From the IMG/VR virus record IMGVR_UViG_3300032309_003726: 20,000 nucleotides of DNA; one strand, given 5' to 3'. Every line of letters begins with the position of its first letter. Positions within the stretch are counted from its first letter, which is position 1. The DNA is from an uncultured virus (IMG/VR IMGVR_UViG_3300032309_003726). Its lineage: Duplodnaviria; Heunggongvirae; Uroviricota; Caudoviricetes. Shown here one piece after another: positions 2,918 to 19,412 of the stretch. The translations under genes were made by a program, and so were the position numbers. The notes below the pieces were generated by a model. It worked only from the letters and a program-made list of their open reading frames with translations. It was not told the DNA's origin and did no database searches.

Positions 2918-3151
2918 TTATTTTGGATTTTTAACTCCATCCCAATTTTGAGAATTTTTAACTCCATCCCAATTTTGTCTGTCATTCGGTTCAAAATTTT
3001 TATTATTTATTTTTGTTTGATTAAAATTATTATCTCTAAAATAAGAAATAATTTTTGATAAAGAACCAGCTATGGCTATTAAAAAAAGTAAATTTAAAAA
3101 AGATAAAAAAAGACAAATATAGTTGATCATAATACATCCATCATTCGACAA
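2918..3151 (-). CDS. Small membrane protein with duplicated QNWDGVKN tail
   Basis: Hydrophobic N-terminal helix (YICLFLSFLNLLFLIAIAGSL); C-terminal 9-aa duplication. Confidence 0.6.
   Translation of the reverse strand: MSNDGCIMINYICLFLSFLNLLFLIAIAGSLSKIISYFRDNNFNQTKINNKNFEPNDRQNWDGVKNSQNWDGVKNPK
2927..2977. repeat. Direct repeat, 24-bp identical core, 27-bp period, 2 copies
   Basis: ATTTTTAACTCCATCCCAATTTTG at 2927-2950 and 2954-2977, in frame within the 2918..3151 ORF. Confidence 0.95.
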
Positions 3152-6100
3152 GGGTTGAAGTTGGCATCCTGACTCTTTTTCTAATGGTTTCTGCCAATGA
3201 TTGAGTGACCTTTAAAATTAAATCGGGAGATTCTACCCAGGCTCTGTTCTTAAAAATTCCAATATTATCATAGATTGTATTTTGATAAATTGTAGCGGAG
3301 GGATTTGAAACAGCGAAATCGCTTTGAGTATCATAATTTATTTCGAATTCAAGCCTGTTAGCTGATGTTAAACAATAGTTGTCTGGCAAAACAGCGATCA
3401 CAACCCTAGTTTCATAGCTGTCGCCCGTAAGTAAGTTGTTTCTAGAAAATTGAAGAGCAACTTTCCAGAGTCTGGATCCCAATATGGTTCCTCCGATATT
3501 ATTAGAGCAAGAAATTTCGGAGACTACATTCCAGGATTCGGGGTAATTGCCTAGACCCGATATTCCTTTATAGTGTAAATTATTTTGCCAAGAATCATTG
3601 GTTTTATTGTACCTTAATTCTAAATTTTTAGAAATAGTAAAATTATTTCTCGTTAAAAATTTGGCAAAAACATTATCGATTGCAAAATTATGAGTCAAAG
3701 TCATTGTGGAAGAAAGATCAAAACAACCACATTTGTTGAAAAAATCAACGTCACCCTCAGCGTCTTGTTTATCTATACCGGCAAAATACACATCCATCTT
3801 TAATAAATTCATTGAGAAATCAAAAATCTGGTCTGGTACGCTAATGTTTCCTGATTTATTTGTGGCCTGTCCTATAACAAACACAGCATTCCCGTCTGAT
3901 ATCCATTTCCAATTTTGCTTTTTTGATCTCGCTGATCCCAAAAGATTTATTCCGCCAGCAGCAAAATATTTAGAAATTTTTCTGGGTACGAACGACTCTC
4001 CCGCAATATTTATACCGCCAACAACTTGATATCTAAATCTCTCAAACCTGGATGCCGATCCTCGTGTTTTCAATCCGCCACTCATCGAATGCCACCAAGG
4101 TAAAACAAAAGCCTCTCCACCAAACTTCAAATTTATAATTGAATTTTCTAAATAAGGAGTTATTTTAGAAGAAGAAGACAACAAACAGCCTCCACTGGTG
4201 TTTGCAACAATGGTTTTGAGTGAGTCGCCACCTATTTTTGCACCAAAAGAAGAAACTTTAAAAACAGTTCGTTTTGTGTATCGAGCATTAGCAGAGCCGT
4301 AAGAGTAAATTTTTCCTAAGGACTTAGATGTATAAGCTGGGGACTTAGCCAAAGCCCCGCTATCTGAAGAAACTCTTATGGTAGAACCATTTGGATCTTC
4401 GTATTCAACTTCAACGTTTATTGAATTAATTCTAGCAATAGTTTGATTTATATTCAAAACAGATTGAACTCTAATAGCCACCCCAAAAGAAGAATTTTTT
4501 ATTTCTTCGAGAGAAGGAACTGCTGGAATCTCTCCTGGTTGGTTATTAATATTCAAATTAATCAAAGAAGATTCGTCCACATACCTATCAAAATCTTCTC
4601 TTCTCCAAGCATCTAATCCATAAGATTTTGTAGTTTGCAAGAGAGGCCAATCTATATTTGTCACTGCCAGATTGCTTGTTATTACTTTGTTGTTTATAAC
4701 CAAAAACAAATCTTTGTCCCTAATGCCACTTTTTGTTGCAACTCTGTCAACGTTGACAATTAATTTTAAAACTTTGCTATTTTCTGGTATGTTAAAAGAA
4801 AAATTTGTCAAAACTAAAAGTTCGGATGTCTTTTTAAAACTAATGTCGGAAGATGAGAAGAGGTTGTCTTCCGAGATTGCTCTTTCCGGCAAAAGCCAAG
4901 GAGACTGCGTTGGAGTATGTTTGAGGCTAGTTGATTTTTTTGCATAACTTTTTGGAGTTTTGTTTGGCCAAACGCCCCCATTATAAGACCAACGATTGTG
5001 TCTAAGCCTAGACTTGCCGCCAACCACACAACCACCAAGACCTCTAAAGAAATTTGTTCCAATTATAAAATTGCCATCAAAAAACAACTCCCCCTCAGAC
5101 TTGAATTTAATATTAGGTAATTTTTTAACAAAAACATAACTAGATTCGCCTGATGTTTGCAAACTTCCTGATGCCGTGGATTGAAAAACTACCCAAGCTT
5201 TAAAATAAAAGCCAGTTTTTAAATTAATGTCCTGATCGACGCAAAAATCTGCACACTCGGGAATCGAACATAACTCAACATCAACAAGATTATTGCAATC
5301 TAAATTGACGCCATTTGATTCTTGTTCTTCAACAACAACAGTTTCCGCAGGTCTGTTGAATCTTTCAACCGTCTCTATTGGAAATTTATATTTTCTTTTA
5401 CTTAATTTTTGACACAACTCGGATAATGACCTTGCGTGCAAATTAACTATAATTTTGCCACAACAAACATCTTGTGGGATACAAGGATCTACAATTCCCT
5501 TGCCAACAACACGATACCAATACATTATTTGTTGACCTAAATTCCAATAAAAATCAACTTTTTTCTCTAATTTAAGATCTGTGTTCCATTTAAATTCTAT
5601 ATCTTTATTAAATTTAAAATTTATTAAAGTACCGTCTGATTTAAGAGATAAACCACCGTCTGAAACGAACAGCGTGTCATTTATAAAATAGAAACCTGAC
5701 CCCTCAACAGATAATGATCCGGATGGTGTGACAAAAAAATTATTGTTTACATTTAGTAAATTTTTACCCGATGGTTTCAATCCGCCGACAACGGAACCTC
5801 TGGCCTCCTTCATTACTAAATTAAAATTAGAAGATGAAGAACAAACGGCACCCCCAAGAGAAACAAAACCTTCGGAAACAAAAAAATCACCCGAGATGAG
5901 ACACAATCCTTCGAAATTATTACGGTAACGAGCCCTAATCAAAGCCGTGCCTTGAAATAGTAAGCCACTACTTTCTACAAAGAATTCTGTGGACTGCGTG
6001 TTGTTGAAATTAACATATAATTTAACTCCACCAAGTGAAACACAATTATAAACAAAGAATGATGAAGAGAAAGGCGAAATTGTAATTCCACCAGTGGCGA

Positions 6101-6440
6101 CAATGGCTTCAGTAGCGATTGCATCCCCTGATAATTTTATTTCAACAACGGTGATGATCACATTAATCAATGATACTGATCCGGAGCCACCAATCCGTGT
6201 TGTGCCTTGCGAACCAATACTATAAATCAAAGACTCTGATCCGGAGCCGCCAATACGTGTTGTGCCTTGCGAACCAATACTATAAATCAAAGACTCTGAT
6301 CCAGAGCCGCTATTATTCACGCCGCCATATGCGGTGATAGAGTAAATAGTGTTGCCCTCATAGGCGCTTTCAATAAGAACAACGTCCGCTTGACCACCTA
6401 AATTTATACCACCAAAAAATATTTCGTCGTAAGTGTTCAT
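3141..6440 (-). CDS. Large putative virion structural/fibre-like protein with ~20-aa GG-periodic repeats and Cys-rich segments
   Basis: 1099-aa ORF. Recurrent GG-x(4)-[GS]-x-[AS] units, a Cys-rich central block (DPCIPQDVCC, ELCSIPECADFC) and a beta-sandwich-like block (SPWLLPE...LVLTNFSFNIPENSKVLKLIVNVDR). Confidence 0.6.
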   Translation of the reverse strand: MNTYDEIFFGGINLGGQADVVLIESAYEGNTIYSITAYGGVNNSGSGSESLIYSIGSQGTTRIGGSGSESLIYSIGSQGTTRIGGSGSVSLINVIITVVEIKLSGDAIATEAIVATGGITISPFSSSFFVYNCVSLGGVKLYVNFNNTQSTEFFVESSGLLFQGTALIRARYRNNFEGLCLISGDFFVSEGFVSLGGAVCSSSSNFNLVMKEARGSVVGGLKPSGKNLLNVNNNFFVTPSGSLSVEGSGFYFINDTLFVSDGGLSLKSDGTLINFKFNKDIEFKWNTDLKLEKKVDFYWNLGQQIMYWYRVVGKGIVDPCIPQDVCCGKIIVNLHARSLSELCQKLSKRKYKFPIETVERFNRPAETVVVEEQESNGVNLDCNNLVDVELCSIPECADFCVDQDINLKTGFYFKAWVVFQSTASGSLQTSGESSYVFVKKLPNIKFKSEGELFFDGNFIIGTNFFRGLGGCVVGGKSRLRHNRWSYNGGVWPNKTPKSYAKKSTSLKHTPTQSPWLLPERAISEDNLFSSSDISFKKTSELLVLTNFSFNIPENSKVLKLIVNVDRVATKSGIRDKDLFLVINNKVITSNLAVTNIDWPLLQTTKSYGLDAWRREDFDRYVDESSLINLNINNQPGEIPAVPSLEEIKNSSFGVAIRVQSVLNINQTIARINSINVEVEYEDPNGSTIRVSSDSGALAKSPAYTSKSLGKIYSYGSANARYTKRTVFKVSSFGAKIGGDSLKTIVANTSGGCLLSSSSKITPYLENSIINLKFGGEAFVLPWWHSMSGGLKTRGSASRFERFRYQVVGGINIAGESFVPRKISKYFAAGGINLLGSARSKKQNWKWISDGNAVFVIGQATNKSGNISVPDQIFDFSMNLLKMDVYFAGIDKQDAEGDVDFFNKCGCFDLSSTMTLTHNFAIDNVFAKFLTRNNFTISKNLELRYNKTNDSWQNNLHYKGISGLGNYPESWNVVSEISCSNNIGGTILGSRLWKVALQFSRNNLLTGDSYETRVVIAVLPDNYCLTSANRLEFEINYDTQSDFAVSNPSATIYQNTIYDNIGIFKNRAWVESPDLILKVTQSLAETIRKRVRMPTSTLVE
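6177..6310. repeat. Tandem repeat, 60-bp unit, ~2.2 copies (coding GSGSESLIYSIGSQGTTRIG)
   Basis: Units at 6177-6236 and 6237-6296 differ at only 2 positions; partial third copy at 6297-6310. Confidence 0.95.
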
Positions 6441-6442
6441 TT

Positions 6443-7156
6443 TTATCCTAGTCTATCGATTATCTTTCCCACCAATGGATGCCTTACTATGCAATCATTG
6501 TTGAACTCTATAACCCCAACTCCGTTTAAATCCCTTAATTTTTGAACAACTTCAACCAAAGCAACTTTGTTACCAATATCACTTTGGGTTGGATCTCCTG
6601 TGATTATAATTTTGCTATTTTCTCCAAAACGAGTTAAAAATAATTTTAATTGCAAAAGAGAAGCATTTTGTGCTTCGTCAAAAATACAAATAGAATTTAA
6701 AAATGAACGACCTCGCATAAAAGCTATAGGAGCCACCTCGACAGCTTGATCTATTTTTTCTCTCCAAGGACCATGTGACCCAACCATTTGATCCATGCAA
6801 TCATACAGAGGTATCATATAAGGGTGTACCTTTTCAGCGAACTCACCGGGCAGGAAACCCAAAGACTCCCCTGCTTCAACAATAGGTCTTGTCAAAATAA
6901 TTTTACTTCTTTTATTATTTAATATCTGCTCTATTGCAAAAGCGCTGGCTAAAAAAGTTTTTCCTGTGCCCGCTGAACCCAACAAAAAAAGTACATCAAA
7001 CTTCTGGAACGCAGCCCAAGCTTCGCTTTGAACTTTATTTTTAAATTCAATGTGAAAATTAGAATTAGACTGAGGAACTTTAATTGGTTTGGCGTTTTTT
7101 GCGTTTTTATTTTTTTCGTTCTTTAAATTTGCAGATTTTCTTTTTTTAAATCCCAT
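6443..7156 (-). CDS. phoH: PhoH-family ATPase
   Basis: Walker A GSAGTGKT, IILTRP-x-VEAGESLGFLPG, AFMRGRS, DEAQN and ITGDPTQSD motifs; SD AAAGGA upstream. Confidence 0.95.
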   Translation of the reverse strand: MGFKKRKSANLKNEKNKNAKNAKPIKVPQSNSNFHIEFKNKVQSEAWAAFQKFDVLFLLGSAGTGKTFLASAFAIEQILNNKRSKIILTRPIVEAGESLGFLPGEFAEKVHPYMIPLYDCMDQMVGSHGPWREKIDQAVEVAPIAFMRGRSFLNSICIFDEAQNASLLQLKLFLTRFGENSKIIITGDPTQSDIGNKVALVEVVQKLRDLNGVGVIEFNNDCIVRHPLVGKIIDRLG

Positions 7157-7205
7157 TTATTTCCTTTCAAAAATGCACACTATATTTAGAATCCAACGTT
7201 AATAA

Positions 7206-7238
7206 TAAAAAACCTTGCCAATATTAAATTGGCAAGGT
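7206..7238 (-). terminator. Rho-independent terminator (minus strand)
   Basis: Perfect 11-bp inverted repeat ACCTTGCCAAT (7212-7222) / ATTGGCAAGGT (7228-7238) with a 5-nt loop, followed on the minus strand by a U-run (A-run at 7207-7212). Confidence 0.85.
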
Positions 7239-7260
7239 AAAAAATATCACAATTCATTTG

Positions 7261-7604
7261 AAGAGATGCCAAGTGCTAATCTAACAACCTAAAACTCAAC
7301 CCTGTTTTCATAACCTTGACAATTGAAAAGAAGATAGTTGTTTTTAAAAGAATCTCAACCAATTTGGATTTGTATTAAATGCTTTACAACTAAAAAGTAT
7401 TTAATTATTGAAACTTTTAACAATATTTATTGACAATTTTTGTCACCCCACCCTTAAATCTTTACTTTTTCAATGATTTTTTTAATACAAACTTGAAAAG
7501 ATTGCTGTTCTTTTCCGACTTTCCGCCTATCAAGGTTAGGTTCGCAACCTCGCACCAAACATTGGTGGCATGTGTAATTTTATGGAAAATTACATGAACC
7601 TCTT
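7261..7604 (-). ncRNA. Candidate structured non-coding RNA of unrecognised class
   Basis: No ORF of 60 aa or more. Nested complementary segments: 7261-7265/7600-7604, 7266-7271/7566-7571, 7311-7319/7530-7538, 7325-7332/7508-7515, 7369-7379/7481-7491, 7392-7399/7463-7470. Local hairpins at 7573-7594, 7538-7550 and 7431-7445. G-U extensions and the downstream terminator favour the minus strand. Confidence 0.65.
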
Positions 7605-7687
7605 TTCGACAAAAAAGATAATGCTAAATTTAAAGTCCAAAGTAGACTTGTTTGTACAAAATATAATAGAAAAAACTAAATACTTTT

Positions 7688-8170
7688 ATGTTAAACTTTA
7701 AAAAATTTCTTCAAGATAACATGGAAGAAGAAAAAGAAGATATTCAGAAAACTCTTTCCAAGTTGCCAAAAGCACACGCAGATCTTGTTAAAGGGTACAA
7801 GTGGAAGTTTCATGCCGGAAACACACTAAATGGAGATGATAAACACGTTGGCTATATGGACAAATACTCGAAGGAAATAGCCATAGCGGCACCTTGGAAT
7901 TTTTCAAGAGAGTTTACAATTCTTCACGAAATAGCTCATCTTGTATATGAAAGATTATCAAAAGAAATAAAAAGTCAATGGTCGCAAGTTGTCAAAAAAA
8001 ACTTTGAAAAACAAACACAAGAAAATCCTGGGGCAAAAGATTCTTTAAAACAAATACCCGAAGAAATTTTTTGTCATTGCTATGCCAATTTTTATTCCAA
8101 GCACAAAAATGCAACCTACAACAACCCTGAGTGGATGGGATTTATAAAGATTTTACACAATGCGATTTAA
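7688..8170 (+). CDS. Zincin-type (HExxH) metallopeptidase-like protein with N-terminal FKKFL..E motif
   Basis: TILHEIAHLVY zinc motif with a downstream EEIFCHCYANFY helix carrying a likely third Glu ligand. Confidence 0.75.
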   Translation: MLNFKKFLQDNMEEEKEDIQKTLSKLPKAHADLVKGYKWKFHAGNTLNGDDKHVGYMDKYSKEIAIAAPWNFSREFTILHEIAHLVYERLSKEIKSQWSQVVKKNFEKQTQENPGAKDSLKQIPEEIFCHCYANFYSKHKNATYNNPEWMGFIKILHNAI

Positions 8171-10470: not shown

Positions 10471-10854
10471 ATGAAATTAAAGTTAACTGATTATAAGGTT
10501 ACCGATCTGATTCTGTCAAATTATAAAGAAATTCACACAAGTGTTAATATATCAAGTGGAGTTCTTAATATAGATCTAAATCAAGGTAACGTTTTTTTAA
10601 TAAACTTTGATCAAAATGTTAGCAATTTAAATATATTAAATGTTCCAAATTTAGACAACATAGTTGTTGCTTTTACAATGGTGATAACAACATCAGGATC
10701 AAACAGGACTATTTCTTGGCCAAATAGTATCAAATGGCCAGCCAGCGCAGCGCCAGTAATAACGATTTTCACTGATAAAAAAGATTTTTTTAGTTTTGTA
10801 ACAATGGACAAAGGTGTAAGCTGGTTTGGTTTTATAGGAGGGCAAAATTATTAA
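10471..10854 (+). CDS. Phage tail-fibre-associated domain protein
   Basis: IDLNQGNVF...RTISWPNSIKWP...AP...D-x-FSF-x-T-x-DKG-x-SWFG...GGQNY, a pattern commonly seen in phage fibre proteins. Confidence 0.65.
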   Translation: MKLKLTDYKVTDLILSNYKEIHTSVNISSGVLNIDLNQGNVFLINFDQNVSNLNILNVPNLDNIVVAFTMVITTSGSNRTISWPNSIKWPASAAPVITIFTDKKDFFSFVTMDKGVSWFGFIGGQNY

Positions 10855-11507
10855 TGTTTGGAGGATTATTACACAAAATAGTATCAACTTCTTTTGACTA
10901 TACTATTTATAATTTTGATTTCTCTAGCGTTAGCAATATATCTCTTTTGGAAAATGCCTCAATATCAAACAATGAATTAATTTTAACACCAAACACACAA
11001 AACTCCTCAGGATCAGCAGAGTTTTTAAATGTAAGAGTTGGATCTAGTAGATATGTTAAAATAATTTTTGATTATAAAATTTTTGACGGAAATGGGGCTG
11101 ACGGTCTGGGTTTCGAATTATCAAGAAGAGCGGCCACCCCTTTGTTGGGTTCGGGCAATTATGTATCCAATGGTATAAGAATGTTTTTGGACACATATGA
11201 TAATGGAGACGGTGTGGGAATAAAAATTTATAGAGATAACTCGAATAGAGTATTTTTCAGCAGTAATTCTTTAAGAAGCAATAACTATAGGAAAGTTTAT
11301 TTTGAATTAGATAGCGTTAAAAGAAAATTAAACTTTACAATAGATCAGGTAATAACAAACGGATCTATAGATCTGTCCACGGAGGAATGCGATCTATTTG
11401 ATTCACCGGATAGTGATATTGTTCAGTACCGGTTAAGGTTTTATGGCAAAACCGGAGGCTTGACTGATCGGCATTCTATTAAAAATTTAACAATAGTCAC
11501 AAAATGA
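10854..11507 (+). CDS. L-type (legume/ConA-like) lectin domain protein
   Basis: LILTPN...GSA, GADGLGF and FLDTYDN motifs typical of L-type lectins; TAATG stop/start coupling to the upstream gene. Confidence 0.7.
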   Translation: MFGGLLHKIVSTSFDYTIYNFDFSSVSNISLLENASISNNELILTPNTQNSSGSAEFLNVRVGSSRYVKIIFDYKIFDGNGADGLGFELSRRAATPLLGSGNYVSNGIRMFLDTYDNGDGVGIKIYRDNSNRVFFSSNSLRSNNYRKVYFELDSVKRKLNFTIDQVITNGSIDLSTEECDLFDSPDSDIVQYRLRFYGKTGGLTDRHSIKNLTIVTK

Positions 11508-12755: not shown

Positions 12756-13068
12756 AGCCACGATCTTGCTCCCAATCTTTTTGCCAAGATTCAAATCCAT
12801 TGTAAGATCCATGAGTAAGATCATTTTTAAAAGAAATTTTTGAGTATAATTCATCGCCCTGAGTATCAACCTGCAAACTCTCAGGATTTACTTTATCTGG
12901 ATCGAAACCTGGACCATACGGAGATGGAGAATAATTTTGTTTTAATTTTTCAATAACGCAACCTGTTGTGGCGTTAATTATGAATTTACTAAAAGCAAAC
13001 CCTAGCAAGTTGATTGTAATTAAAGAAATAACTATTAGAAATATTTTATTATTTTTTAAATCATCCAT
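12739..13068 (-). CDS. Membrane-anchored hypothetical protein
   Basis: N-terminal hydrophobic helix ([18 protein letters not shown]); SD AGGAGA; overlaps the dnaJ stop. Confidence 0.7.
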
Positions 13069-14143
13069 TTTTTTCTCCTATTTTTTTAAAAATTTCTTGT
13101 CTATTTGTGTTCAAACAAGAGTTTTCTAACTCCATTAGTTTAGTAAAAATTTCTTTTTCTTTATCACCCAAATCATTTGGTGTGTGGAGCGTAAGATTAA
13201 CGTATTGATCACCACGTTGGTATATAGTATCACTGGTATTAAATATAGGTAATCCTAAGTTCTTCAGTCTTAGCTTTTGATTCGGCTTTGATTTTGGGGG
13301 AATAACAATGGCGGCTCGCCCTTCCAAGGTAGGAACCTCTATTTGAGTTCCCAAAACAAGTTCAGAATATCCAACAGGCCAATTTATTAAAATGTCTCCC
13401 TTTGGTAATCTTTCAAAATATTCATGCTTCTGTACATTTATTGATATAAACAAATCGCCAAAAACACCATCAGAATCAACTGGGGGATTTCCCAGACCTT
13501 TTTGAACAAATCTCATTCGATTATCTACTCCGGGGAAGATTTTGAATTTTATTTTTTGTTCCTCCGAGTTGATGTATCCCCCTTCGCAATTTGAACAAGA
13601 TTCACCTATAACGCTTCCGGTGCCACCGCACGCCTGACAGCCAGCCCTCACGGTCATGGCCCTCCCTTGAATTACCCTTGAACCAGTGCCATCGCAATGT
13701 TTGCACTTTATTCTATCGCCACCAAAACCATTGCACTTATCACAAATATTTTTTTTCTGGTAGAGAAGATCTATTTCGCCACCACTTAAAACTTGATTTA
13801 ATGTTATGTTTGCTTCCAAAAATATGTCCTCGCCTTTGGAAACTTGCTGAGGTCTATTATTGAAAAATTGAGCAAACATATCTTCAAAAGCCGAGGAGAA
13901 GGGTTTGCCTCTTTCAAAAAAATCATTTCCTTGAATTGATCCATGGCTGTCATAATTAAATCTTGAATTTTTATTGCTTAAAATTTCAAAAGCACGAGAA
14001 ACTTGTTTGAAATTTTCCGCTGACTCTGGGTCGTTTGGGTTTAAATCGGGGTGATATTTTTTTGCCAAATCACGATAAGCCTTACGAATATCCTCCTCTG
14101 AGGCACCTTTTTCAAGACCTAAGATTTCATATAAATTTTTCAA
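13061..14143 (-). CDS. dnaJ: Chaperone DnaJ (class A: J domain, four Cys zinc-finger repeats, C-terminal domain)
   Basis: YEILG...KYHPD J-domain; [24 protein letters not shown] and CSNCEGG repeats; GDLFI and LG-x(4)-VPTLEG motifs. Likely TTG start at 14143 overlapping the upstream TGA. Confidence 0.95.
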
Positions 14144-14922
14144 AATATTTCTCCAGCCAGTCTTTGGCAATTATTGTAATAAGATAAAAGAGATTCTTTG
14201 TGTGCATTCTTATGCCACAACAATTGATAATCGTGAATTCCTTTATATTGAGAAATAAAATTGGTTGGGTGACACAAACCACATTTATTATATAAATTTT
14301 CAAAAAAAGAGCGGTCAGTGTCTTTAATTAGTGGTTTTCCTTGTATAAATTTTGTAGTTTCTGCGAACCAAGCATCAAATTTTTTACAACAATCAGATCT
14401 CCAAGCAACTTGAGTTGCATCCAATTTTCCAACTGGGTTTATAGGATTTTTATATTGATTATATTTGTGCGACAAAGAATCAGCTTCTTCGCTTTTCTGG
14501 AACAAAGGATTATATGTTATAATATTTGAATAACAATAAAGAACTTCTTGATTTTTTAAAAAAAAATTATTTAAATTATAAAAATAATTAGGATAAAATT
14601 CATCGTCATCACAAAGAGTCACAACCAAATCGGCATCAGAGTTCTTTATGGCTTGATTTGCGTACTTGCCTATCGACAAACCTTCTTGTATTTTTTGTTC
14701 CGGGGAAGCATTTGAATTTGCAAAAATAATTTGATTTTTAAAATCTGCCAGAATATCCTCTACAATTGGCTTTCCTGGATTTGGACTACCGTCATCGCCA
14801 AAGAAAAGAACCCAATTCTGGTGGAGATTATTACACTTTGCAATACTTCTTAAAGCATTTTTTACCAAAATAGGTCTATTATAATAAACCATCAATATTA
14901 AAATTTTTAACTTATTTTTCAT
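14140..14922 (-). CDS. Glycosyltransferase family 2
   Basis: [22 protein letters not shown] and LCDDD motifs. Confidence 0.88.
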
Positions 14923-16396: not shown

Positions 16397-17226
16397 ATAA
16401 TTTGTTTTTTAATATATTCTTTTATATCAACAACAGGACTCCATTGAGTTTTGATACAAGTATGCTCAATATCGGCAAGTGTTGTTTTTGCTTCGCCTTT
16501 TCTAGGTTCGATATACTCAACGGGCGAATTAAAAAAAGAAGCTATTTCATTAATAGAATAATTTTTACCCGATCCTAAATTAAAGATTTCAAAATCCCAG
16601 TCTGTTTTCATTATGCAAACAAGACCTGACACTATATCGTCTACATGTGTAAAATCACGCCTTTGTTCGCCATCCCCGGTTATGGTAAGGTTTTTATTTT
16701 GCTTTTTTTGTTTTTCAAAAATCCCAACAACGGTGGCGTACTCTCCTTCTTCAATTTGTCTAGGTCCATAAACATTAAAAAATCTAGCAATTGCCACAGG
16801 AACTTGAAAAATTTTATTGTAAAGAACGCAATATTGTTCTCCTATGCTTTTGCTAAAAGCGTAGGGATTAGCATAAATGTCATGCAAAACAGAGCTAGAT
16901 CCAGCAAAGATTACTCTAGACTTTGATTTTTTTGCAAAATCTAAAATCTTAAAAGTACCTGTGGTGTTTGAGTCGTGAACATTTGTTGTATCTTTAAAAC
17001 TAGGTTGAATTCTTGGCAAAGCCGCCAAATGAAAAATAAAATCAAAATCATATGAAAAACGACAAGATTCTATATTTTGAACGAAACCATACCTATATGT
17101 TGCTTTTGGATTTTCATGCTTGCAAAAAGCACAATCTAAAGAAACAACTTCATAATTCAAAGAAACCAACTTGTCAACAAGATGAGAGCCGATAAATCCC
17201 GACCCTCCAGTAACTAAACATCTCAT
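16393..17226 (-). CDS. NAD-dependent nucleotide-sugar epimerase/dehydratase (extended SDR)
   Basis: LVTGGSGFIGSHL, FHLAA, SSS, YAFSK (YxxxK), RFFNVYGPRQ and GDGEQRRDFTHVDD motifs. Confidence 0.95.
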   Translation of the reverse strand: MRCLVTGGSGFIGSHLVDKLVSLNYEVVSLDCAFCKHENPKATYRYGFVQNIESCRFSYDFDFIFHLAALPRIQPSFKDTTNVHDSNTTGTFKILDFAKKSKSRVIFAGSSSVLHDIYANPYAFSKSIGEQYCVLYNKIFQVPVAIARFFNVYGPRQIEEGEYATVVGIFEKQKKQNKNLTITGDGEQRRDFTHVDDIVSGLVCIMKTDWDFEIFNLGSGKNYSINEIASFFNSPVEYIEPRKGEAKTTLADIEHTCIKTQWSPVVDIKEYIKKQII

Positions 17227-17792
17227 ATTATCTTATTTTTAATTGGTTCTAGGCGGCAAACTATATTCGTTCCATCAAGTTTTGGCGGAGCCTCCACGGC
17301 TGCGACATCGGATAGAAGATTCAATAACTTTTTGAAAACCTCGAAGCCTTGATTTTTATGAGCATTTTCACGCTGCCTGAATTTACAAACACACTTTACT
17401 TTGTAGCCCTTTGTTAAAAAAACTCTTATTTGATTAGATTTTGTATTAAGATCCCCGTCAGCTATAACATACCTGAAGTCTATTTCTTTTTCTTTAACTT
17501 GGTTTTGCTTGCTATTAGATTCTTTTTGCTTCTTTTGTTTGTCATACATGTATTTTCCGTAATCTATGATATGACAAACTGGAGGTCTGGCGTTGGGGGC
17601 AACTTCAACCAAATCTAAATCAAAACTTCTAGCCAATTGTAGGGCGGATCTACTTTGCATCACCCCTAAATTTTTCCCATCATGAATCACTAAAACCTGA
17701 GGTATTCTAATTTGTTCGTTGCATCTGACTCGATCCTTTTTTGGATTATCATCAAACCTTGAATACCTTCCAAAATTACCATTTATAGCCAT
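17223..17792 (-). CDS. infC: Translation initiation factor IF-3
   Basis: NEQIR, DLDLVEVAPNARPPVCHIIDYGKYMY, KEIDFR..I...DL.TK and FL.KG.KVK motifs. Most plausible start is the ATG at 17792 (MAING...), with AAAGGA upstream. Confidence 0.95.
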   Translation of the reverse strand: MAINGNFGRYSRFDDNPKKDRVRCNEQIRIPQVLVIHDGKNLGVMQSRSALQLARSFDLDLVEVAPNARPPVCHIIDYGKYMYDKQKKQKESNSKQNQVKEKEIDFRYVIADGDLNTKSNQIRVFLTKGYKVKCVCKFRQRENAHKNQGFEVFKKLLNLLSDVAAVEAPPKLDGTNIVCRLEPIKNKII

Positions 17793-17811
17793 TAGGGCTT
17801 TATATCCTTTC

Positions 17812-18858
17812 TTAGATTTCTGTTGTGAAACTATCAACTATTTGAACAATAAATCCTTCGTTATTGGAAGGAAATCTTCTAACCCACTCAACACCCTCCC
17901 CCATAAAACAACCAAAATCCTCTGGTGTTAAACTGGGGCTTGTAAAACTTGGTATAACAGAGACGTTTTGAGAGTTTAAAATTCCATTGTTATTATAGGA
18001 ATTATTTTTATTTGAATTATCTGTTGTCAACAACACAGAGCCGTCATTGTGATTTTCTCCGGTATAGTATTGATTATCGGAGTGAAGGTGAATATCGCCA
18101 TTCCAAGGAAGTTGTTTCAAAAAATACTTATCATCTACTTGGTTGTATTCTAATCTAACGGATGAGTTGGAGTCAGCGGAACCCGTATAATAGAATCCAT
18201 CTTCATTATTTTTAAACACTTCTCCAACCCAATCACCATCAGGAATAAAATAAACAACTTCTATCATTTTTAAAACCTTGAATTCTAGGTAGTAGATTCC
18301 TGGGAGACATGTATCCTCTGGCTTCCAATCATATGTTAAAAAAGAAGATTGAATAACATCATTTTCAAGGGTTCCATCAACATTATTAATATCTTTGAAT
18401 TCCATTTCGGCTCTGGCTTGTTCATTCATTATTCTAAAAATTCTTATCTTGGTTCCTTTTTTATAAGAATTAGCATCTGTTCCATGGTAAGATCTTTGAA
18501 CTTTAATAAATTTATTTTTTTCATCAAAACCAAGAACCAACATTTTTTCTGGTGATCTAACTTGGTCTACTATGATTATATCCCCCACCATAACTTGGTT
18601 AAAACCTATGTTGTCTGCAACAGGGAAGTAATCAACGGACTCATTAAGGTCTGTCTTTAGTTTTGCCGAGGACCACATATTGATCTCTGCAATTAACCCA
18701 CGAAAATCAAAAGGTCCATCGCAATCTTCTATTGAAACACGAAAAGAGGGCCTTGTATCGTGTCTTTTTATGGAAAAATCTGGTGTTACTTGTGAATTTG
18801 CATCTTGGCAACCACATGTGTTGCAACTTCCAGTCTTCAAGTTATATCTCAGTGCCAT
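17812..18858 (-). CDS. BppU N-terminal-like (baseplate/tail adaptor) structural protein with insertions
   Basis: FSIKRHDTRPSF.V...D..G..D and YDW...DT..PG.Y..EF.V...FP pattern resembling BppU_N-type domains. Confidence 0.55.
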   Translation of the reverse strand: MALRYNLKTGSCNTCGCQDANSQVTPDFSIKRHDTRPSFRVSIEDCDGPFDFRGLIAEINMWSSAKLKTDLNESVDYFPVADNIGFNQVMVGDIIIVDQVRSPEKMLVLGFDEKNKFIKVQRSYHGTDANSYKKGTKIRIFRIMNEQARAEMEFKDINNVDGTLENDVIQSSFLTYDWKPEDTCLPGIYYLEFKVLKMIEVVYFIPDGDWVGEVFKNNEDGFYYTGSADSNSSVRLEYNQVDDKYFLKQLPWNGDIHLHSDNQYYTGENHNDGSVLLTTDNSNKNNSYNNNGILNSQNVSVIPSFTSPSLTPEDFGCFMGEGVEWVRRFPSNNEGFIVQIVDSFTTEI

Positions 18859-18869
18859 GATATTATTAT

Positions 18870-19412
18870 TTACCGCTCAGCGAGCATTTTTTGTAAATTA
18901 ACGATCCAATCGGACAGCCAATCTATGTTGCCATTAAATTTTTCAATTTTAGTGCCACCAAGTTTTGCTATTTCAAAAGTTTTTTGACGCCAATCAGAAT
19001 TTTGCAAACTCGAACTTAGGCCAGACTGAAAATCAAAATAAACGACTCTTCCTATGCCTTTGCTAACAATCTGCAACATACAAGCTGGGCAAGGCAAAGC
19101 AGTCACATAGAGGGTGGAGTCTATTAGATTAATATTTTGCAAATAAATATTATTCATCGCATTAATTTCTGCATGAATTATCAAATCATACTTGCATAAA
19201 TTATTTTCTTTGTCAGCAACTCTATCCCAAACTACGTCCAAATCTTTAATGTTTCTCGGGGGACCATTGTAACCTTCACCTAAAACATAATTATCATTAG
19301 AAACGATATAAGCACCAACTTGGGTGTTTGGATCTTTTGAACAAGAAGCTATAGTCCAAGCCAAGCCCATGTATCTAGAATCTCGATCAGGTGTGTTCCT
19401 AAATTTTTGCAT
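18870..19412 (-). CDS. dCMP deaminase family protein
   Basis: SKDPNTQVGA, GYNG, HAEINA and PCPAC zinc-deaminase motifs. Confidence 0.92.
   Translation of the reverse strand: MQKFRNTPDRDSRYMGLAWTIASCSKDPNTQVGAYIVSNDNYVLGEGYNGPPRNIKDLDVVWDRVADKENNLCKYDLIIHAEINAMNNIYLQNINLIDSTLYVTALPCPACMLQIVSKGIGRVVYFDFQSGLSSSLQNSDWRQKTFEIAKLGGTKIEKFNGNIDWLSDWIVNLQKMLAER

What the first reader, a model, noticed from the sequence alone, without database searches (positions are those of the whole stretch)
7206..7610. Unannotated ~345-nt highly structured RNA candidate with its own terminator
Seen: this is the only large ORF-free gap in an otherwise wall-to-wall coding window. It contains strictly nested complementary segments: AAGAG 7261-7265/CTCTT 7600-7604; ATGCCA 7266-7271/TGGCAT 7566-7571; TAACCTTGA 7311-7319/TCAAGGTTA 7530-7538; GAAAAGAA 7325-7332/TTCTTTTC 7508-7515; TTTGTATTAAA 7369-7379/TTTAATACAAA 7481-7491; AAAAAGTA 7392-7399/TACTTTTT 7463-7470. 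Branch hairpins add to this (9-bp at 7573-7594, 7538-7550, 7431-7445). The 5' and 3' ends pair with each other. On the minus strand, some mismatches become G-U pairs, and an 11-bp terminator hairpin with U-tail follows about 20 nt downstream. Known: large phages carry tmRNA, RNase P-like RNAs and large orphan ncRNAs (e.g. GOLLD, ROOL). Inference: this is a discrete, independently terminated multi-junction RNA. I could not match it to tRNA, tmRNA, RNase P, SRP or group I/II intron consensus, so it may be a new class.
Basis: partly seen in the sequence, partly recalled or inferred. Interest (0 to 1): 0.85.

Follow-up and report, generated by a model that had tools for sequence, protein, structure and literature searches.

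The report
New structured RNA beside phage phoH
The only gene-free gap in this huge-phage window holds a folded non-coding RNA gene from a family found in no RNA catalogue, always just upstream of the poorly understood phoH gene, and it may be that enzyme's RNA partner.

Summary
The 531-nt gap (7157-7687) between phoH (minus strand) and a small HExxH ORF (plus strand) holds an RNA gene on the minus strand. It runs from about 7656 to about 7205, from a -10-like box to an 11-bp intrinsic terminator. Comparative data favour local hairpins and a helix joining the 5' end to the segment just after hairpin B.

Evidence:
- Contigs from RNA libraries consist of just this stretch (7247-7647).
- Relatives occur in six lineages of one huge-phage clade (8 sequences). 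Two core helices covary: 8 of 13 pairs change on both sides, and 0 of 500 shuffles do as well.
- Five of six one-sided changes in helices give G-U on the minus strand only.

Rfam, tRNA/tmRNA, RNase P and T-box tests are negative. Folding energy alone is weak (z -1.7 without the terminator).

The RNA has its own promoter and terminator. The next gene varies and keeps its own promoter-like motif, so I favour an independent RNA over a leader.

Function is unknown. A 2026 preprint reports long structured RNAs beside bacterial PhoH2, which makes a PhoH partnership plausible. The RNA is patchy even among close phoH relatives.

The parts
7663..7668 (-). -10-like hexamer TATTAT, placing the start of the RNA near 7656
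   Evidence: Read. It is invariant in the window, L001 and L002. The consensus scan did not call it. The analogous L009 promoter, TTGTCA-16-TAGAAT, ends 8 nt before the conserved 5' strand. Inferred, not shown.
7205..7656 (-). Predicted primary transcript of the structured non-coding RNA (about 450 nt)
   Evidence: The bounds are inferred from the -10 box and the terminator. RNA-library contigs cover 7259-7647 and 7247-7642, the latter with an adapter joined at 7642, and 7533-7699.
7650..7656 (-). P1 5' strand, UACAAAC
   Evidence: Pairs with 7492-7486 (7 Watson-Crick pairs). The equivalent helix has a different sequence in L003 (UUAUUUGAU/AUUAAAUAA), L009 and L004 (UCACGG/CCGUGA), L006 (UCACGG/CCGUGG) and L276 (AUCAUGG/CUGUGAU). 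Per-lineage shuffle tests reached the observed score in 87 to 239 of 2000.
7573..7594 (-).
   Evidence: The A-to-G change at 7591 in L001 and run X20 keeps the pair as G-U on the minus strand. The change at 7586 breaks the loop-closing pair on the minus strand.
7566..7571 (-). It crosses P1, so it is a long-range or pseudoknot contact
   Evidence: Pair 7569:7268 is G-C in the window, G-U in L002, X17, X19 and X3, and A-U in L001.
7553..7567 (-). P2 hairpin, CACCAA-UGU-UUGGUG, directly 5' of the conserved core
   Evidence: A hairpin of different sequence sits at the same place in L009 (CCACU/AGUGG), L006 (CUAUUG/CAAUAG) and L004 (GUGCU/AGCAU), read. This was seen by eye and not scored by a tool.
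7532..7551 (-). Hairpin P-A (GAGGUU / AACCUU) with the conserved loop GCGAACCU
   Evidence: RNAalifold on a plain MAFFT alignment predicts it. In the 8-sequence alignment 81% of cells are paired and 3 of 6 pairs change on both sides.
7516..7531 (-). Conserved junction strand GAUAGGCGGAAAGUCG (family consensus close to UGACGGAAAGCC)
   Evidence: Nearly invariant block.
7495..7515 (-). Hairpin B: GAAAAGA / UCUUUUC stem with the conserved loop ACAGCAA
   Evidence: 94.3% of cells are paired and 5 of 7 pairs change on both sides. RNAalifold predicts it independently.
7486..7492 (-). P1 3' strand, GUUUGUA, starting 2 nt after hairpin B
   Evidence: Same position as CCGUGA/CCGUGG/CUGUGAU in the relatives.
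7374..7405 (-). Variable hairpin (12 bp) preceding block D
   Evidence: In the cross-lineage alignment, 5 of 11 predicted pairs keep pairing through changes on both sides.
7357..7370 (-). Block D, AAUCCAAAUUGGUU (AACCCAAGCUGGCU in L009, AACCCAAGCUGGCC in L006, AAGCCAAGUUUGCG in L004)
   Evidence: Aligned by MAFFT.
7261..7271 (-). UGGCAU-CUCUU, the 3' partners of AUGCCA (7571-7566) and AAGAG (7604-7600)
   Evidence: At 7263 the C-to-U change gives G-U in L001, X19 and X3, while G in L002 breaks the pair.
7203..7238 (-). Intrinsic terminator: 11-bp stem, 5-nt loop, U-tail
   Evidence: The C-to-U change in the 5' arm of L002 keeps a U-G pair on the minus strand only. Scans also find terminators at the end of the L009, L004 and L006 elements.
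7180..7191 (-). TTCTAAATATAG, a promoter-like motif between the terminator and the phoH start codon
   Evidence: Similar TAAATATAG or TATATAG motifs lie 20-35 nt before the next gene in L276, L004 and L003. They also lie before phoH in the RNA-less relatives L041, L021 and L011. Function is inferred.
6443..7156 (-). phoH (237 aa, PhoH domain only, no PIN domain)
   Evidence: Pfam PF02562, E 6.9e-65.
7688..8170 (+). Divergent 160-aa ORF with an HEIAH (HExxH) motif, a conserved neighbour
   Evidence: 43-51% identity to the neighbours of phoH in six other phage loci. 44 related viral loci were found. Pfam hits are all below threshold.

Best explanation
The gap holds an independent gene for a structured non-coding RNA of about 450 nt on the minus strand.

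The RNA starts about 7 nt after a -10-like box (near 7656) and ends at an intrinsic terminator (stem 7238-7212, tail to about 7203). It belongs to an uncatalogued RNA family found so far in six lineages of one clade of huge phages (records up to 459 kb). In every case it lies upstream of, and in the same direction as, the phoH gene cluster.

The conserved core is a multi-helix domain. The 5' end pairs with the segment just after hairpin B (P1). P1 encloses a variable hairpin (P2), hairpin P-A, a purine-rich junction (window GGCGGAAAGUC; ACGGAAAGCC in L009, L004 and L276) and hairpin B with the loop RCRGCAA. A second domain follows, with a variable hairpin and the block AAYCCAARYUGG.

I read it as a stable RNA that acts in trans, not as a leader. 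The most likely role is as the RNA partner, substrate or regulator of the PhoH-like ATPase encoded next to it.

What is shown: the sequence family, the covarying helices, the strand, the terminator, and presence in RNA libraries. What is inferred: the exact ends, independence from phoH transcription, and any link to the PhoH protein.
For: Presence in RNA libraries:
- Two contigs from RNA libraries of one study consist of this stretch alone. One is 389 nt (7259-7647). The other is 419 nt (7247-7642) with a sequencing adapter joined at 7642.
- A third contig, from another study, covers 7533-7699.
- The DNA run from the same sample as X19 spans the region in one 8,059-nt contig.

Homology:
- Model R1 was built from the window, L001, L002, L003 and L006. 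It found new members in 2 of the other 46 related phage records: L009 (40.4 bits, E 7e-10) and L004 (26.4 bits, E 4e-5).
- It found 1 more member, L276 (56.6 bits), among 36 loci fetched through the neighbouring HExxH ORF.

Covariation:
- On the 8-sequence alignment, 88.4% of cells pair and 8 of 13 pairs change on both sides. 0 of 500 shuffles reach the covariation score, and slid controls are lower.
- RNAalifold on an unfitted MAFFT alignment predicts the same two helices.
- A second block (variable hairpin plus block D) aligns colinearly in four lineages.
- P1 is kept with different sequences in the window, L003 and the UCACGG group.

Strand:
- Five one-sided changes in helices give G-U on the minus strand and A-C on the plus strand. 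They are at 7268, 7263, 7591, 7514 and in the terminator arm. One change, at 7586, goes the other way.

Own transcription unit:
- Promoter-like sites end 6-8 nt before the conserved 5' strand in L009 and L004.
- The scan finds terminators in 4 of the 5 elements scanned and none in L003. L276 was not scanned.
- The gene after the terminator differs: phoH, a C39-peptidase-like ORF (L009) or another ORF (L004).
- That gene keeps a promoter-like motif which RNA-less relatives also have before phoH.
- Terminator arms pair with the RNA body no better than with shuffled bodies in 4 of the 5 lineages tested. In L276 only 3 of 300 shuffles matched one arm.

Link to PhoH:
- All 8 sequences lie upstream of and co-oriented with phoH.
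- A preprint reports long structured RNAs beside bacterial PhoH2 genes (10.64898/2026.10.21.760802; I read passages only).
Against: - Folding energy is barely better than shuffles without the terminator: z -1.67 (window), -1.20 (L009) and -2.06 (L004).
- RNA-library contigs give no strand and no expression level, and such libraries can hold DNA. The two well-bounded contigs come from a single study, and the contig from the other study runs on to 7699, past the proposed start.
- The contigs stop at 7647, short of the proposed P1 5' strand (7656-7650), so P1 in the window rests on homology and on an unverified start site.
- The covariation alignment was fitted to the model. It holds only six independent lineages.
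- Only the core (about 75 nt) and block D were shown to be homologous. The rest of the fold is not resolved.
- The RNA is patchy. In the PhoH tree its carriers sit in one 19-row clade, interleaved with 12 RNA-less rows, which needs at least 4 gains or losses. PhoH therefore clearly works without it, which weakens an obligatory partnership.
- The phage PhoH lacks the PIN domain of the PhoH2 proteins in the preprint.
- Homology to the preprint's RNA clusters could not be tested.
Confidence: 0.55

Rival explanations
1. A cis-acting leader, such as a riboswitch- or attenuator-like element. The structured RNA would be the 5' leader of the phoH operon. Its terminator would be read through or not according to a ligand, protein or tRNA bound by the conserved junction.
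For: - In all 8 sequences the RNA lies upstream of, and in the same direction as, the next gene. It ends in a terminator only 40-55 nt before that gene's start codon.
- The conserved core (several helices around an invariant purine-rich junction) looks like an aptamer.
- In the window, AUUGUCAAGGU (7323-7313) could pair with the terminator's 5' arm in 10 of 11 positions (seen by eye).
- In L276 one terminator arm pairs with the RNA's 5' region better than 297 of 300 shuffles.
- A leader stopped at its terminator would give the same short RNA contigs.
- An earlier report of this scan describes a phoH leader fold in a T4-like phage (unchecked).
Against: - The gene after the terminator differs between lineages: phoH, a C39-like peptidase, or a weak HD-like ORF.
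- A promoter-like motif sits between the terminator and that gene, and the same motif precedes phoH in RNA-less relatives.
- Alternative pairing with the terminator arms is no better than in shuffles in the window (93 and 103 of 300), L009, L004 and L006.
- At 300-450 nt with a second domain, it is much larger than known leaders.
- Close phoH relatives have gaps of only 50-130 nt and no such element.
- The T-box model gives no match at E up to 10.
Confidence: 0.25
2. A highly diverged copy of a known stable RNA, such as RNase P RNA, tmRNA, 6S or SRP. Such an RNA would suit a phage that carries many tRNAs.
For: - The length is right and the ends are paired.
- The window RNA holds GGAAAGUC and AAGGGUG, which recall conserved RNase P regions. 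This is recalled from memory, not tested by alignment.
- Relatives carry 10-55 tRNA matches.
Against: - Rfam finds nothing at gathering score, and nothing relevant at E up to 10 in the window or in the L009 element.
- Neither RNase P model (types A and B) matches at the locus in five relatives at E up to 10.
- Canonical tmRNA genes lie elsewhere in 4 of the 5 relatives.
- ARAGORN finds nothing.
- The RNase P-like words fall at non-equivalent places in different lineages, and I found no complement for a P4 helix by eye.
Confidence: 0.03
3. A DNA-level element: an imperfect palindrome in a divergent promoter region that serves as an origin, operator array or recombination site. The RNA fold would be incidental.
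For: - Both strands fold equally well.
- The region lies between divergent genes and is AT-rich, about 29% G+C.
Against: - Compensatory changes keep local hairpins rather than the long palindrome.
- One-sided changes are tolerated as G-U on one strand only.
- There are no iteron-like direct repeats beyond chance-level pairs.
- The GC skew follows gene direction and shows no distinct switch here.
Confidence: 0.03
4. Chance complementarity in AT-rich spacer DNA with no function.
For: Without the terminator, z is only -1.67. Many alternative pairings exist: one search lists 63 inverted-repeat pairs.
Against: The core is conserved at 26-84 bits across phages whose PhoH proteins are only 55-60% identical. 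Covariation exceeds all 500 shuffles. Contigs from RNA libraries match the element.
Confidence: 0.02

Closest known systems
PhoH2-associated long structured ncRNA candidates (COMPASS cluster 1,412,455 and 26 further clusters; bioRxiv 10.64898/2026.10.21.760802; I read passages only, supplements closed)
   Same: A long multi-stem RNA (357 nt in the example given) with no Rfam annotation, encoded next to a PhoH-family gene. It has RNA-seq cover concentrated on the RNA, and different RNA architectures go with different PhoH lineages.
   Different: - Those are bacterial loci beside PIN-PhoH (PhoH2) proteins. Here the host is a huge phage and the PhoH has no PIN domain.
- The preprint did not cover viral genomes.
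- Sequence or structural homology could not be tested, because no sequence of those clusters was available to me.
GOLLD and ROOL, large ornate RNAs of phages and prophages (Rfam; bioRxiv 10.1101/2024.12.08.627333, seen only as a search listing and abstract)
   Same: Large, highly structured RNAs carried by phages, of unknown function, and found with metagenome data.
   Different: No Rfam match to either. This RNA is smaller (about 300-450 nt against roughly 580-800 nt, sizes recalled). It lies next to phoH rather than next to tRNA genes. Self-assembly was not tested.
Transcription-attenuating leaders (riboswitches, T-box)
   Same: A structured RNA followed by an intrinsic terminator just upstream of a gene in the same direction, with a conserved junction.
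   Different: No T-box or riboswitch model matches. The downstream genes vary. No antiterminator is supported in 4 of 5 lineages. A promoter-like motif lies after the terminator.
Earlier report of this scan, e1-6086280 (another huge-phage genome)
   Same: It describes an RNA of about 425 nt upstream of phage phoH, uncatalogued, found in a small clade of huge phages, of unknown function.
   Different: This is an unchecked AI note. No sequence was available, and the look-up by sequence found no look-alike. I could not confirm that it is the same family or that it has the three pseudoknots claimed.

Membership tests
Any Rfam 15 family | Covariance-model score at or above the curated gathering score | tested here: not met
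   0 matches in the 20-kb window. At E up to 10 the best match is 22.8 bits against a cut-off of 65. Nothing relevant was found in the L003, L005 or L006 gaps or in the L009 element.
Bacterial RNase P RNA (types A and B) | Match to RF00010 or RF00011, which includes the P4 helix formed by the conserved regions | tested here: not met
   No match at the locus in 5 relatives at E up to 10. The only hit is 3.9 bits, elsewhere in G009. Controls rang in 11 of 14 genomes. I found no P4 complement by eye.
tmRNA | tRNA-like domain plus a tag reading frame (ARAGORN, RF00023) | tested here: not met
   ARAGORN finds 0 genes in the window and in L001, L003, L005 and L006. Canonical tmRNAs lie elsewhere in G001, G003, G004 and G009.
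T-box leader | Match to RF00230 (Stem I with specifier loop, T-box sequence in an antiterminator) | tested here: not met
   0 of 5 relatives match at E up to 10. The GGUGG-containing words in the window and L003 resemble the T-box sequence only from recall, and they are not conserved in L004 or L009.
Transcription attenuator or riboswitch (generic) | An alternative pairing that competes with the terminator | tested here: inconclusive
   The best ungapped pairing of the terminator arms with the RNA body is no better than shuffles in the window, L009, L004 and L006. In L276 only 3 of 300 shuffles match one arm. Gapped pairings were not scored.
Transcription attenuator or riboswitch (generic) | The same regulated gene class downstream | tested here: not met
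   The downstream gene is phoH in the window, L003, L006 and L276, a C39-like peptidase in L009, and an ORF with a weak HD hit in L004.
PhoH2-associated structured ncRNAs (preprint candidates) | Encoded adjacent to a PhoH-family gene | tested here: met
   All 8 sequences lie upstream of and co-oriented with phoH. One ORF intervenes in L004 and L009.
PhoH2-associated structured ncRNAs (preprint candidates) | The neighbouring protein carries both PIN and PhoH domains | tested here: not met
   The window's PhoH has the PhoH domain only, at residues 36-234 of 237.
PhoH2-associated structured ncRNAs (preprint candidates) | Sequence or structure homology to a described cluster | not testable with these tools
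   No cluster sequences are in the text I read, and bioRxiv supplements are closed.
New family defined here (phage phoH-upstream RNA) | Core of hairpin P-A, an ACGGAAAGCC-like junction and hairpin B with loop RCRGCAA, detected by models R1 and R2 | tested here: met
   The window scores 84.5 bits (E 9e-24). It was part of the training set. The independent members L009, L004 and L276 score 40.4, 26.4 and 56.6 bits.

The most novel reading that the evidence does not exclude
The RNA is the dedicated RNA partner of the phage PhoH-like ATPase, whether as substrate, guide or regulator. RNA-plus-PhoH modules would then be an ancient, widespread two-part system shared by bacteria (PhoH2) and huge phages. 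That would give the first concrete handle on what PhoH, a very common but unexplained phage gene, actually does.
Probability: 0.3. Interest if true: 0.8.

Novelty: new variant of a known kind. Interest (0 to 1): 0.62.

Why it matters
- phoH is one of the most widespread auxiliary genes of phages and is used as a marker gene, yet its function is unknown (from my own knowledge).
- A discrete, conserved, structured RNA next to it in huge phages parallels the long RNAs just reported beside bacterial PhoH2. That turns 'what does PhoH act on?' into a directly testable question: does PhoH bind, unwind or process this RNA?
- Whatever the PhoH link, it adds a family of large structured RNAs that no catalogue holds. 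The family comes from genomes (huge phages) whose non-coding content is almost unexplored.

Tried and rejected
- **Uncovered flanks in the RNA runs.** The RNA-library contigs do not cover phoH or the 160-aa ORF. I do not count it, nor contig depth, as a measure of expression.
- **Strand from the adapter.** The adapter joined at 7642 in X19 is, from recall, the one read at the end of read 1. In a dUTP-stranded library that would put the RNA on the minus strand with a 5' end at 7642. I do not know whether the library is stranded, so this is a hint only.
- **DNA pattern and similarity searches for more relatives.**
  - A 14-mer scan of viral contigs returned 115 or more chance hits.
  - Longer patterns found only contigs I already knew.
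  - The single metagenome scan found only the 459-kb relative.
  - blastn against GenBank phages found nothing.
  - BLAST of the element against 46 related records gave only AT-rich matches of 37 nt or less, in 7 records.
- **Prokaryote genomes.** A pattern scan gave 4 hits, none with the hairpin. This is no evidence of absence.
- **Weak model hits.** The R2 hit in L280 (23.5 bits) lies inside a 447-aa ORF and is a false positive. L281 (17.8 bits) matches one hairpin only and is not counted. L226 and L214 (16.5 and 15.1 bits) are not counted either.
- **L005.** Its 335-nt gap before phoH ends in a GC-rich hairpin and a T-run seen by eye (not scanned) and shares a 12-mer with L003. Neither R1 nor R2 detects it, so it stays open.
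- **Small protein.** The gap has no start-to-stop ORF of 60 aa or more, and the minus-strand stop-to-stop frames lack a Met. Alternative genetic codes were not tried.
- **Repeated or mobile element.** The element is single-copy in the 459-kb and 177-kb relatives.
- **Giant-virus origin.** The NCLDV capsid search found nothing, but its control rang nowhere either, so it is uninformative. Phage origin rests on a tail-fibre-like domain, tmRNA and tRNA genes and the IMG/VR relatives.
- **Scoring P1 with the count of structure pairs.** MAFFT did not align the helix ends, so P1 rests on direct reading and a simple shuffle test.
- **Literature.** Searches found no description of this RNA. One search found only the PhoH2 preprint.
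Full report
**Setting.** The window is wall-to-wall coding apart from one 531-nt gap, 7157-7687. On the minus strand the gap is bounded by phoH (6443-7156; Pfam PhoH, E 6.9e-65). On the plus strand it is bounded by a 160-aa ORF with an HEIAH motif (7688-8170). Other genes in the window include bacterial-type IF3, DnaJ, dCMP deaminase, glycosyltransferases and a tail-fibre-like domain. The closest relatives are IMG/VR contigs of 459 kb and 177 kb, 96% identical over the gap. More distant phoH relatives come from contigs of up to 527 kb. Five of these phage records carry 1-55 tRNA matches, and four of the five carry a canonical tmRNA. I therefore treat this as a huge phage. No whole genome is held for the window.

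**Checking the observation.** The minus-strand terminator is real: 11 pairs at 7238-7212 followed by a T-tail. The 421-nt stretch 7200-7620 folds better than all 100 shuffles on both strands, with z -3.52 (minus) and -4.33 (plus). Without the terminator the signal is weak. For 7247-7647 on the minus strand z is -1.67, and 5 of 100 shuffles fold as well. Two relatives give -1.20 and -2.06. By folding energy alone the finding would be marginal.

**Known families.**
- Rfam 15 gives no match at gathering scores in the whole window.
- At E up to 10 in the gap, the best Rfam match is 22.8 bits against a cut-off of 65.
- ARAGORN finds no tRNA or tmRNA.
- The gap has no ORF of 60 aa or more, and the minus-strand stop-to-stop frames have no Met.
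- The element is single-copy in the two close relatives.

**RNA libraries.** Of 20 public runs holding part of the stretch, three are RNA libraries. I laid those three and one DNA run.
- X17 has a 389-nt contig covering 7259-7647.
- X19 has a 419-nt contig covering 7247-7642, with 23 adapter letters joined at 7642.
- X20, from another study, has a 177-nt contig covering 7533-7699.
- The DNA run from the same sample as X19 crosses the whole region in one 8,059-nt contig.
- The RNA contigs carry the same variants as that DNA contig at six sites, so they come from the same phage population.
- Caveats from the tool: contigs show neither strand nor level, RNA libraries can hold DNA, and uncovered flanks are not evidence. 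X17 and X19 come from one study, and X20 does not stop at 7647.

I take this as consistent with a discrete RNA of about 400 nt, not as proof.

**Strand.** I compared the window, L001, L002 and the variants. One-sided changes inside helices are nearly all transitions that leave a G-U pair on the minus strand and would give A-C on the plus strand.
- 7268 opposite 7569: G-C in the window, G-U in L002, X17, X19 and X3, A-U in L001. This is a full compensatory series.
- 7263 opposite 7602.
- 7591 opposite 7576.
- 7514 opposite 7496.
- One position in the terminator's 5' arm in L002.

One change, at 7586 in a loop-closing pair, goes the other way. L002 also has an uncompensated G at 7263. With the terminator, this puts the RNA on the minus strand.

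**Relatives.** BLAST and nhmmer found only the two near-identical contigs. I then measured the ORF-free gap upstream of phoH in the 57 phoH loci that were long enough. Most gaps are under 130 nt, but L003 (295 nt), L005 (335 nt) and L006 (548 nt) have long ones.

L003 and L006 share a colinear block with the window. In the window it reads AACCUUGAUAGGCGGAAAGUC, followed by a hairpin whose stem differs in each lineage while its loop, RCRGCAA, is kept.

A 75-position covariance model of this block (R1) was searched as follows.
- In 50 whole phage records it found two new members, L009 (40.4 bits) and L004 (26.4 bits). All other hits had E above 0.01.
- The remaining 20 phoH loci gave nothing.
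- Fetching 44 loci through the neighbouring HExxH ORF and searching 36 of them gave one more member, L276 (56.6 bits). The other 8 lie on contigs already searched.
- A rebuilt model (R2) over 49 records added nothing real. Its 23.5-bit hit in L280 lies inside a 447-aa ORF.

The family so far has 8 sequences in six lineages.

**Structure.** On the 8-sequence model-fitted alignment, the two core helices pair in 88.4% of cells and 8 of 13 pairs change on both sides. No shuffle out of 500 reaches the covariation score, and sliding the partners lowers every measure. Hairpin B alone has 5 of 7 compensatory pairs. RNAalifold on a plain MAFFT alignment predicts the same two helices without prompting.

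A second colinear region aligns in the window, L004, L006 and L009, with 5 of 11 predicted pairs compensatory. It is a hairpin of variable sequence followed by AAUCCAAAUUGGUU in the window, AACCCAAGCUGGCU in L009, AACCCAAGCUGGCC in L006, and AAGCCAAGUUUGCG in L004.

By direct reading:
- A hairpin of unrelated sequence sits just 5' of the core in four lineages.
- The first bases after the predicted start pair with the segment 1-6 nt after hairpin B in every lineage. The pairs are window UACAAAC/GUUUGUA, L003 UUAUUUGAU/AUUAAAUAA, L009 and L004 UCACGG/CCGUGA, L006 UCACGG/CCGUGG, and L276 AUCAUGG/CUGUGAU. In each lineage, 87 to 239 of 2000 shuffles reach the observed score.

This helix (P1) closes a first domain of 110-240 nt.

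- Its GAAAAGAA/UUCUUUUC helix is displaced by hairpin B.
- Its UAACCUUGA/UCAAGGUUA helix takes uncompensated changes in L001 and L002.
- Its AUGCCA/UGGCAU helix is supported by strain covariation, but it crosses P1 and would be a long-range contact.

The rest of the fold is unresolved.

**Independent gene or leader?**

For an independent gene:
- Promoter-like sites end 6-8 nt before the conserved 5' strand in L009 (10 of 12 consensus matches) and L004.
- The scan finds terminators at the 3' end in the window, L009, L004 and L006. It finds none in L003. L276 was read but not scanned.
- The gene that follows differs: phoH, a C39-like peptidase in L009, or another ORF in L004.
- A TAAATATAG or TATATAG-like motif lies between the terminator and that gene. 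The same motif precedes phoH in relatives with no RNA.
- Terminator arms pair with the RNA body no better than with shuffled bodies in four of five lineages.

For a leader:
- The orientation is constant.
- The distance from terminator to start codon is short.
- The core looks like an aptamer.
- The window holds a possible 10-of-11 antiterminator.
- L276 is the exception.

I put the leader reading at about 0.25.

**Known classes considered.**
- RNase P was attractive, because these phages have many tRNAs and the window RNA holds GGAAAGUC and AAGGGUG. But the type A and B models find nothing at the locus in five relatives at E up to 10. The suggestive words also sit at non-equivalent positions in different lineages.
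- tmRNA genes lie elsewhere.
- The T-box model finds nothing.

**Link to PhoH.** All 8 sequences lie upstream of and co-oriented with phoH, with one ORF between in L004 and L009.

After my own analysis I looked up earlier findings of this scan. One unchecked report describes an uncatalogued RNA of about 425 nt upstream of phoH in another huge phage, and it pointed to a preprint. I read passages of that preprint (10.64898/2026.10.21.760802). Its main points are:
- It reports long multistem RNA candidates next to bacterial PhoH2 (PIN-PhoH) genes.
- 148 of 326 loci of its lead cluster are adjacent to PhoH2.
- RNA-seq cover exists for a 357-nt example.
- Different RNA architectures go with different PhoH2 lineages.
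- It did not analyse viral genomes.

The phage PhoH here lacks a PIN domain, and I could not test homology to those clusters.

In a PhoH tree of 47 rows, the seven RNA-bearing rows all fall in one 19-row clade. They are interleaved with 12 RNA-less rows, which needs at least four gains or losses; 1 of 500 label shuffles is as clustered. The RNA is therefore an accessory that is often lost. That argues against an obligatory cofactor but still allows an optional partner or regulator.

**Verdict.** This is a real structured RNA family (about 0.9). It is probably an independent trans-acting RNA gene rather than a leader (about 0.65 of that). Its function is unknown, and a working partnership with PhoH is the most interesting reading the evidence leaves open (about 0.3). 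It belongs to no catalogued family. As a kind, it sits next to the recently proposed PhoH2-associated RNAs and the large orphan phage RNAs, so I rate it a new variant of a known kind.

Noticed in passing
window 17223-17837 (-), 13061-14170 (-), 18870-19412 (-): The phage encodes a full bacterial-type IF3 (IF3_N and IF3_C domains), a three-domain DnaJ and a dCMP deaminase.
   Followed up: no
window 7688-8170 (+): A small 160-aa ORF with an HEIAH motif. It is a conserved divergent neighbour of phoH (43-51% identity in six other loci; 44 related viral loci) and is present with or without the RNA. Its only Pfam hits are sub-threshold matches to metallopeptidase-type families.
   Followed up: partly
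L276 383-2149 (-): The phoH-like ORF after the RNA is 588 aa instead of about 237 aa. Unrelated sequence follows the Walker A motif, which may be an intein.
   Followed up: no
window 7180-7191 (-); L276, L004, L003, L041, L021, L011 upstream of genes: A recurrent TAAATATAG or TATATAG motif lies 20-35 nt before start codons. It may be a promoter specific to this phage clade.
   Followed up: partly
L005 2630-2964: A 335-nt ORF-free gap before phoH ends in a GC-rich hairpin and T-run (seen by eye, not scanned). It shares the 12-mer ATAGTTGATGAA with L003, but models R1 and R2 do not detect it. It may be a diverged relative or a different RNA.
   Followed up: partly
hairpin B loop (window 7505-7500) and GAUUGC in the 5' domain of L003, L006, L009 and L276: The invariant GCAAUC of the hairpin B loop is complementary to the invariant GAUUGC in the 5' domain, so the two may form a pseudoknot. 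In the window the nearest complement is GGUUGC at 7549-7544. Seen by eye only.
   Followed up: no
L055 2855-2927 and L020 2496-2567: In two other relatives a tRNA gene, rather than this RNA, lies upstream of phoH on the same strand.
   Followed up: no
G006 (record of L006), about 70-106 kb: There are 55 tRNA-model matches in one 340-kb phage record, mostly in one array. Canonical tmRNA genes occur in G001, G003, G004 and G009.
   Followed up: no
window 3141-6440 (-): A 1099-aa ORF, and several others (60-908, 898-1485, 1945-2868, 17812-18858), have no Pfam or PHROG match.
   Followed up: no
window 10854-11507 (+): A 217-aa ORF has weak matches to legume-lectin-like domains. One is below the cut-off and the other (23.2 bits) is just under a cut-off of 24. 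It sits next to a tail-fibre-like ORF.
   Followed up: no
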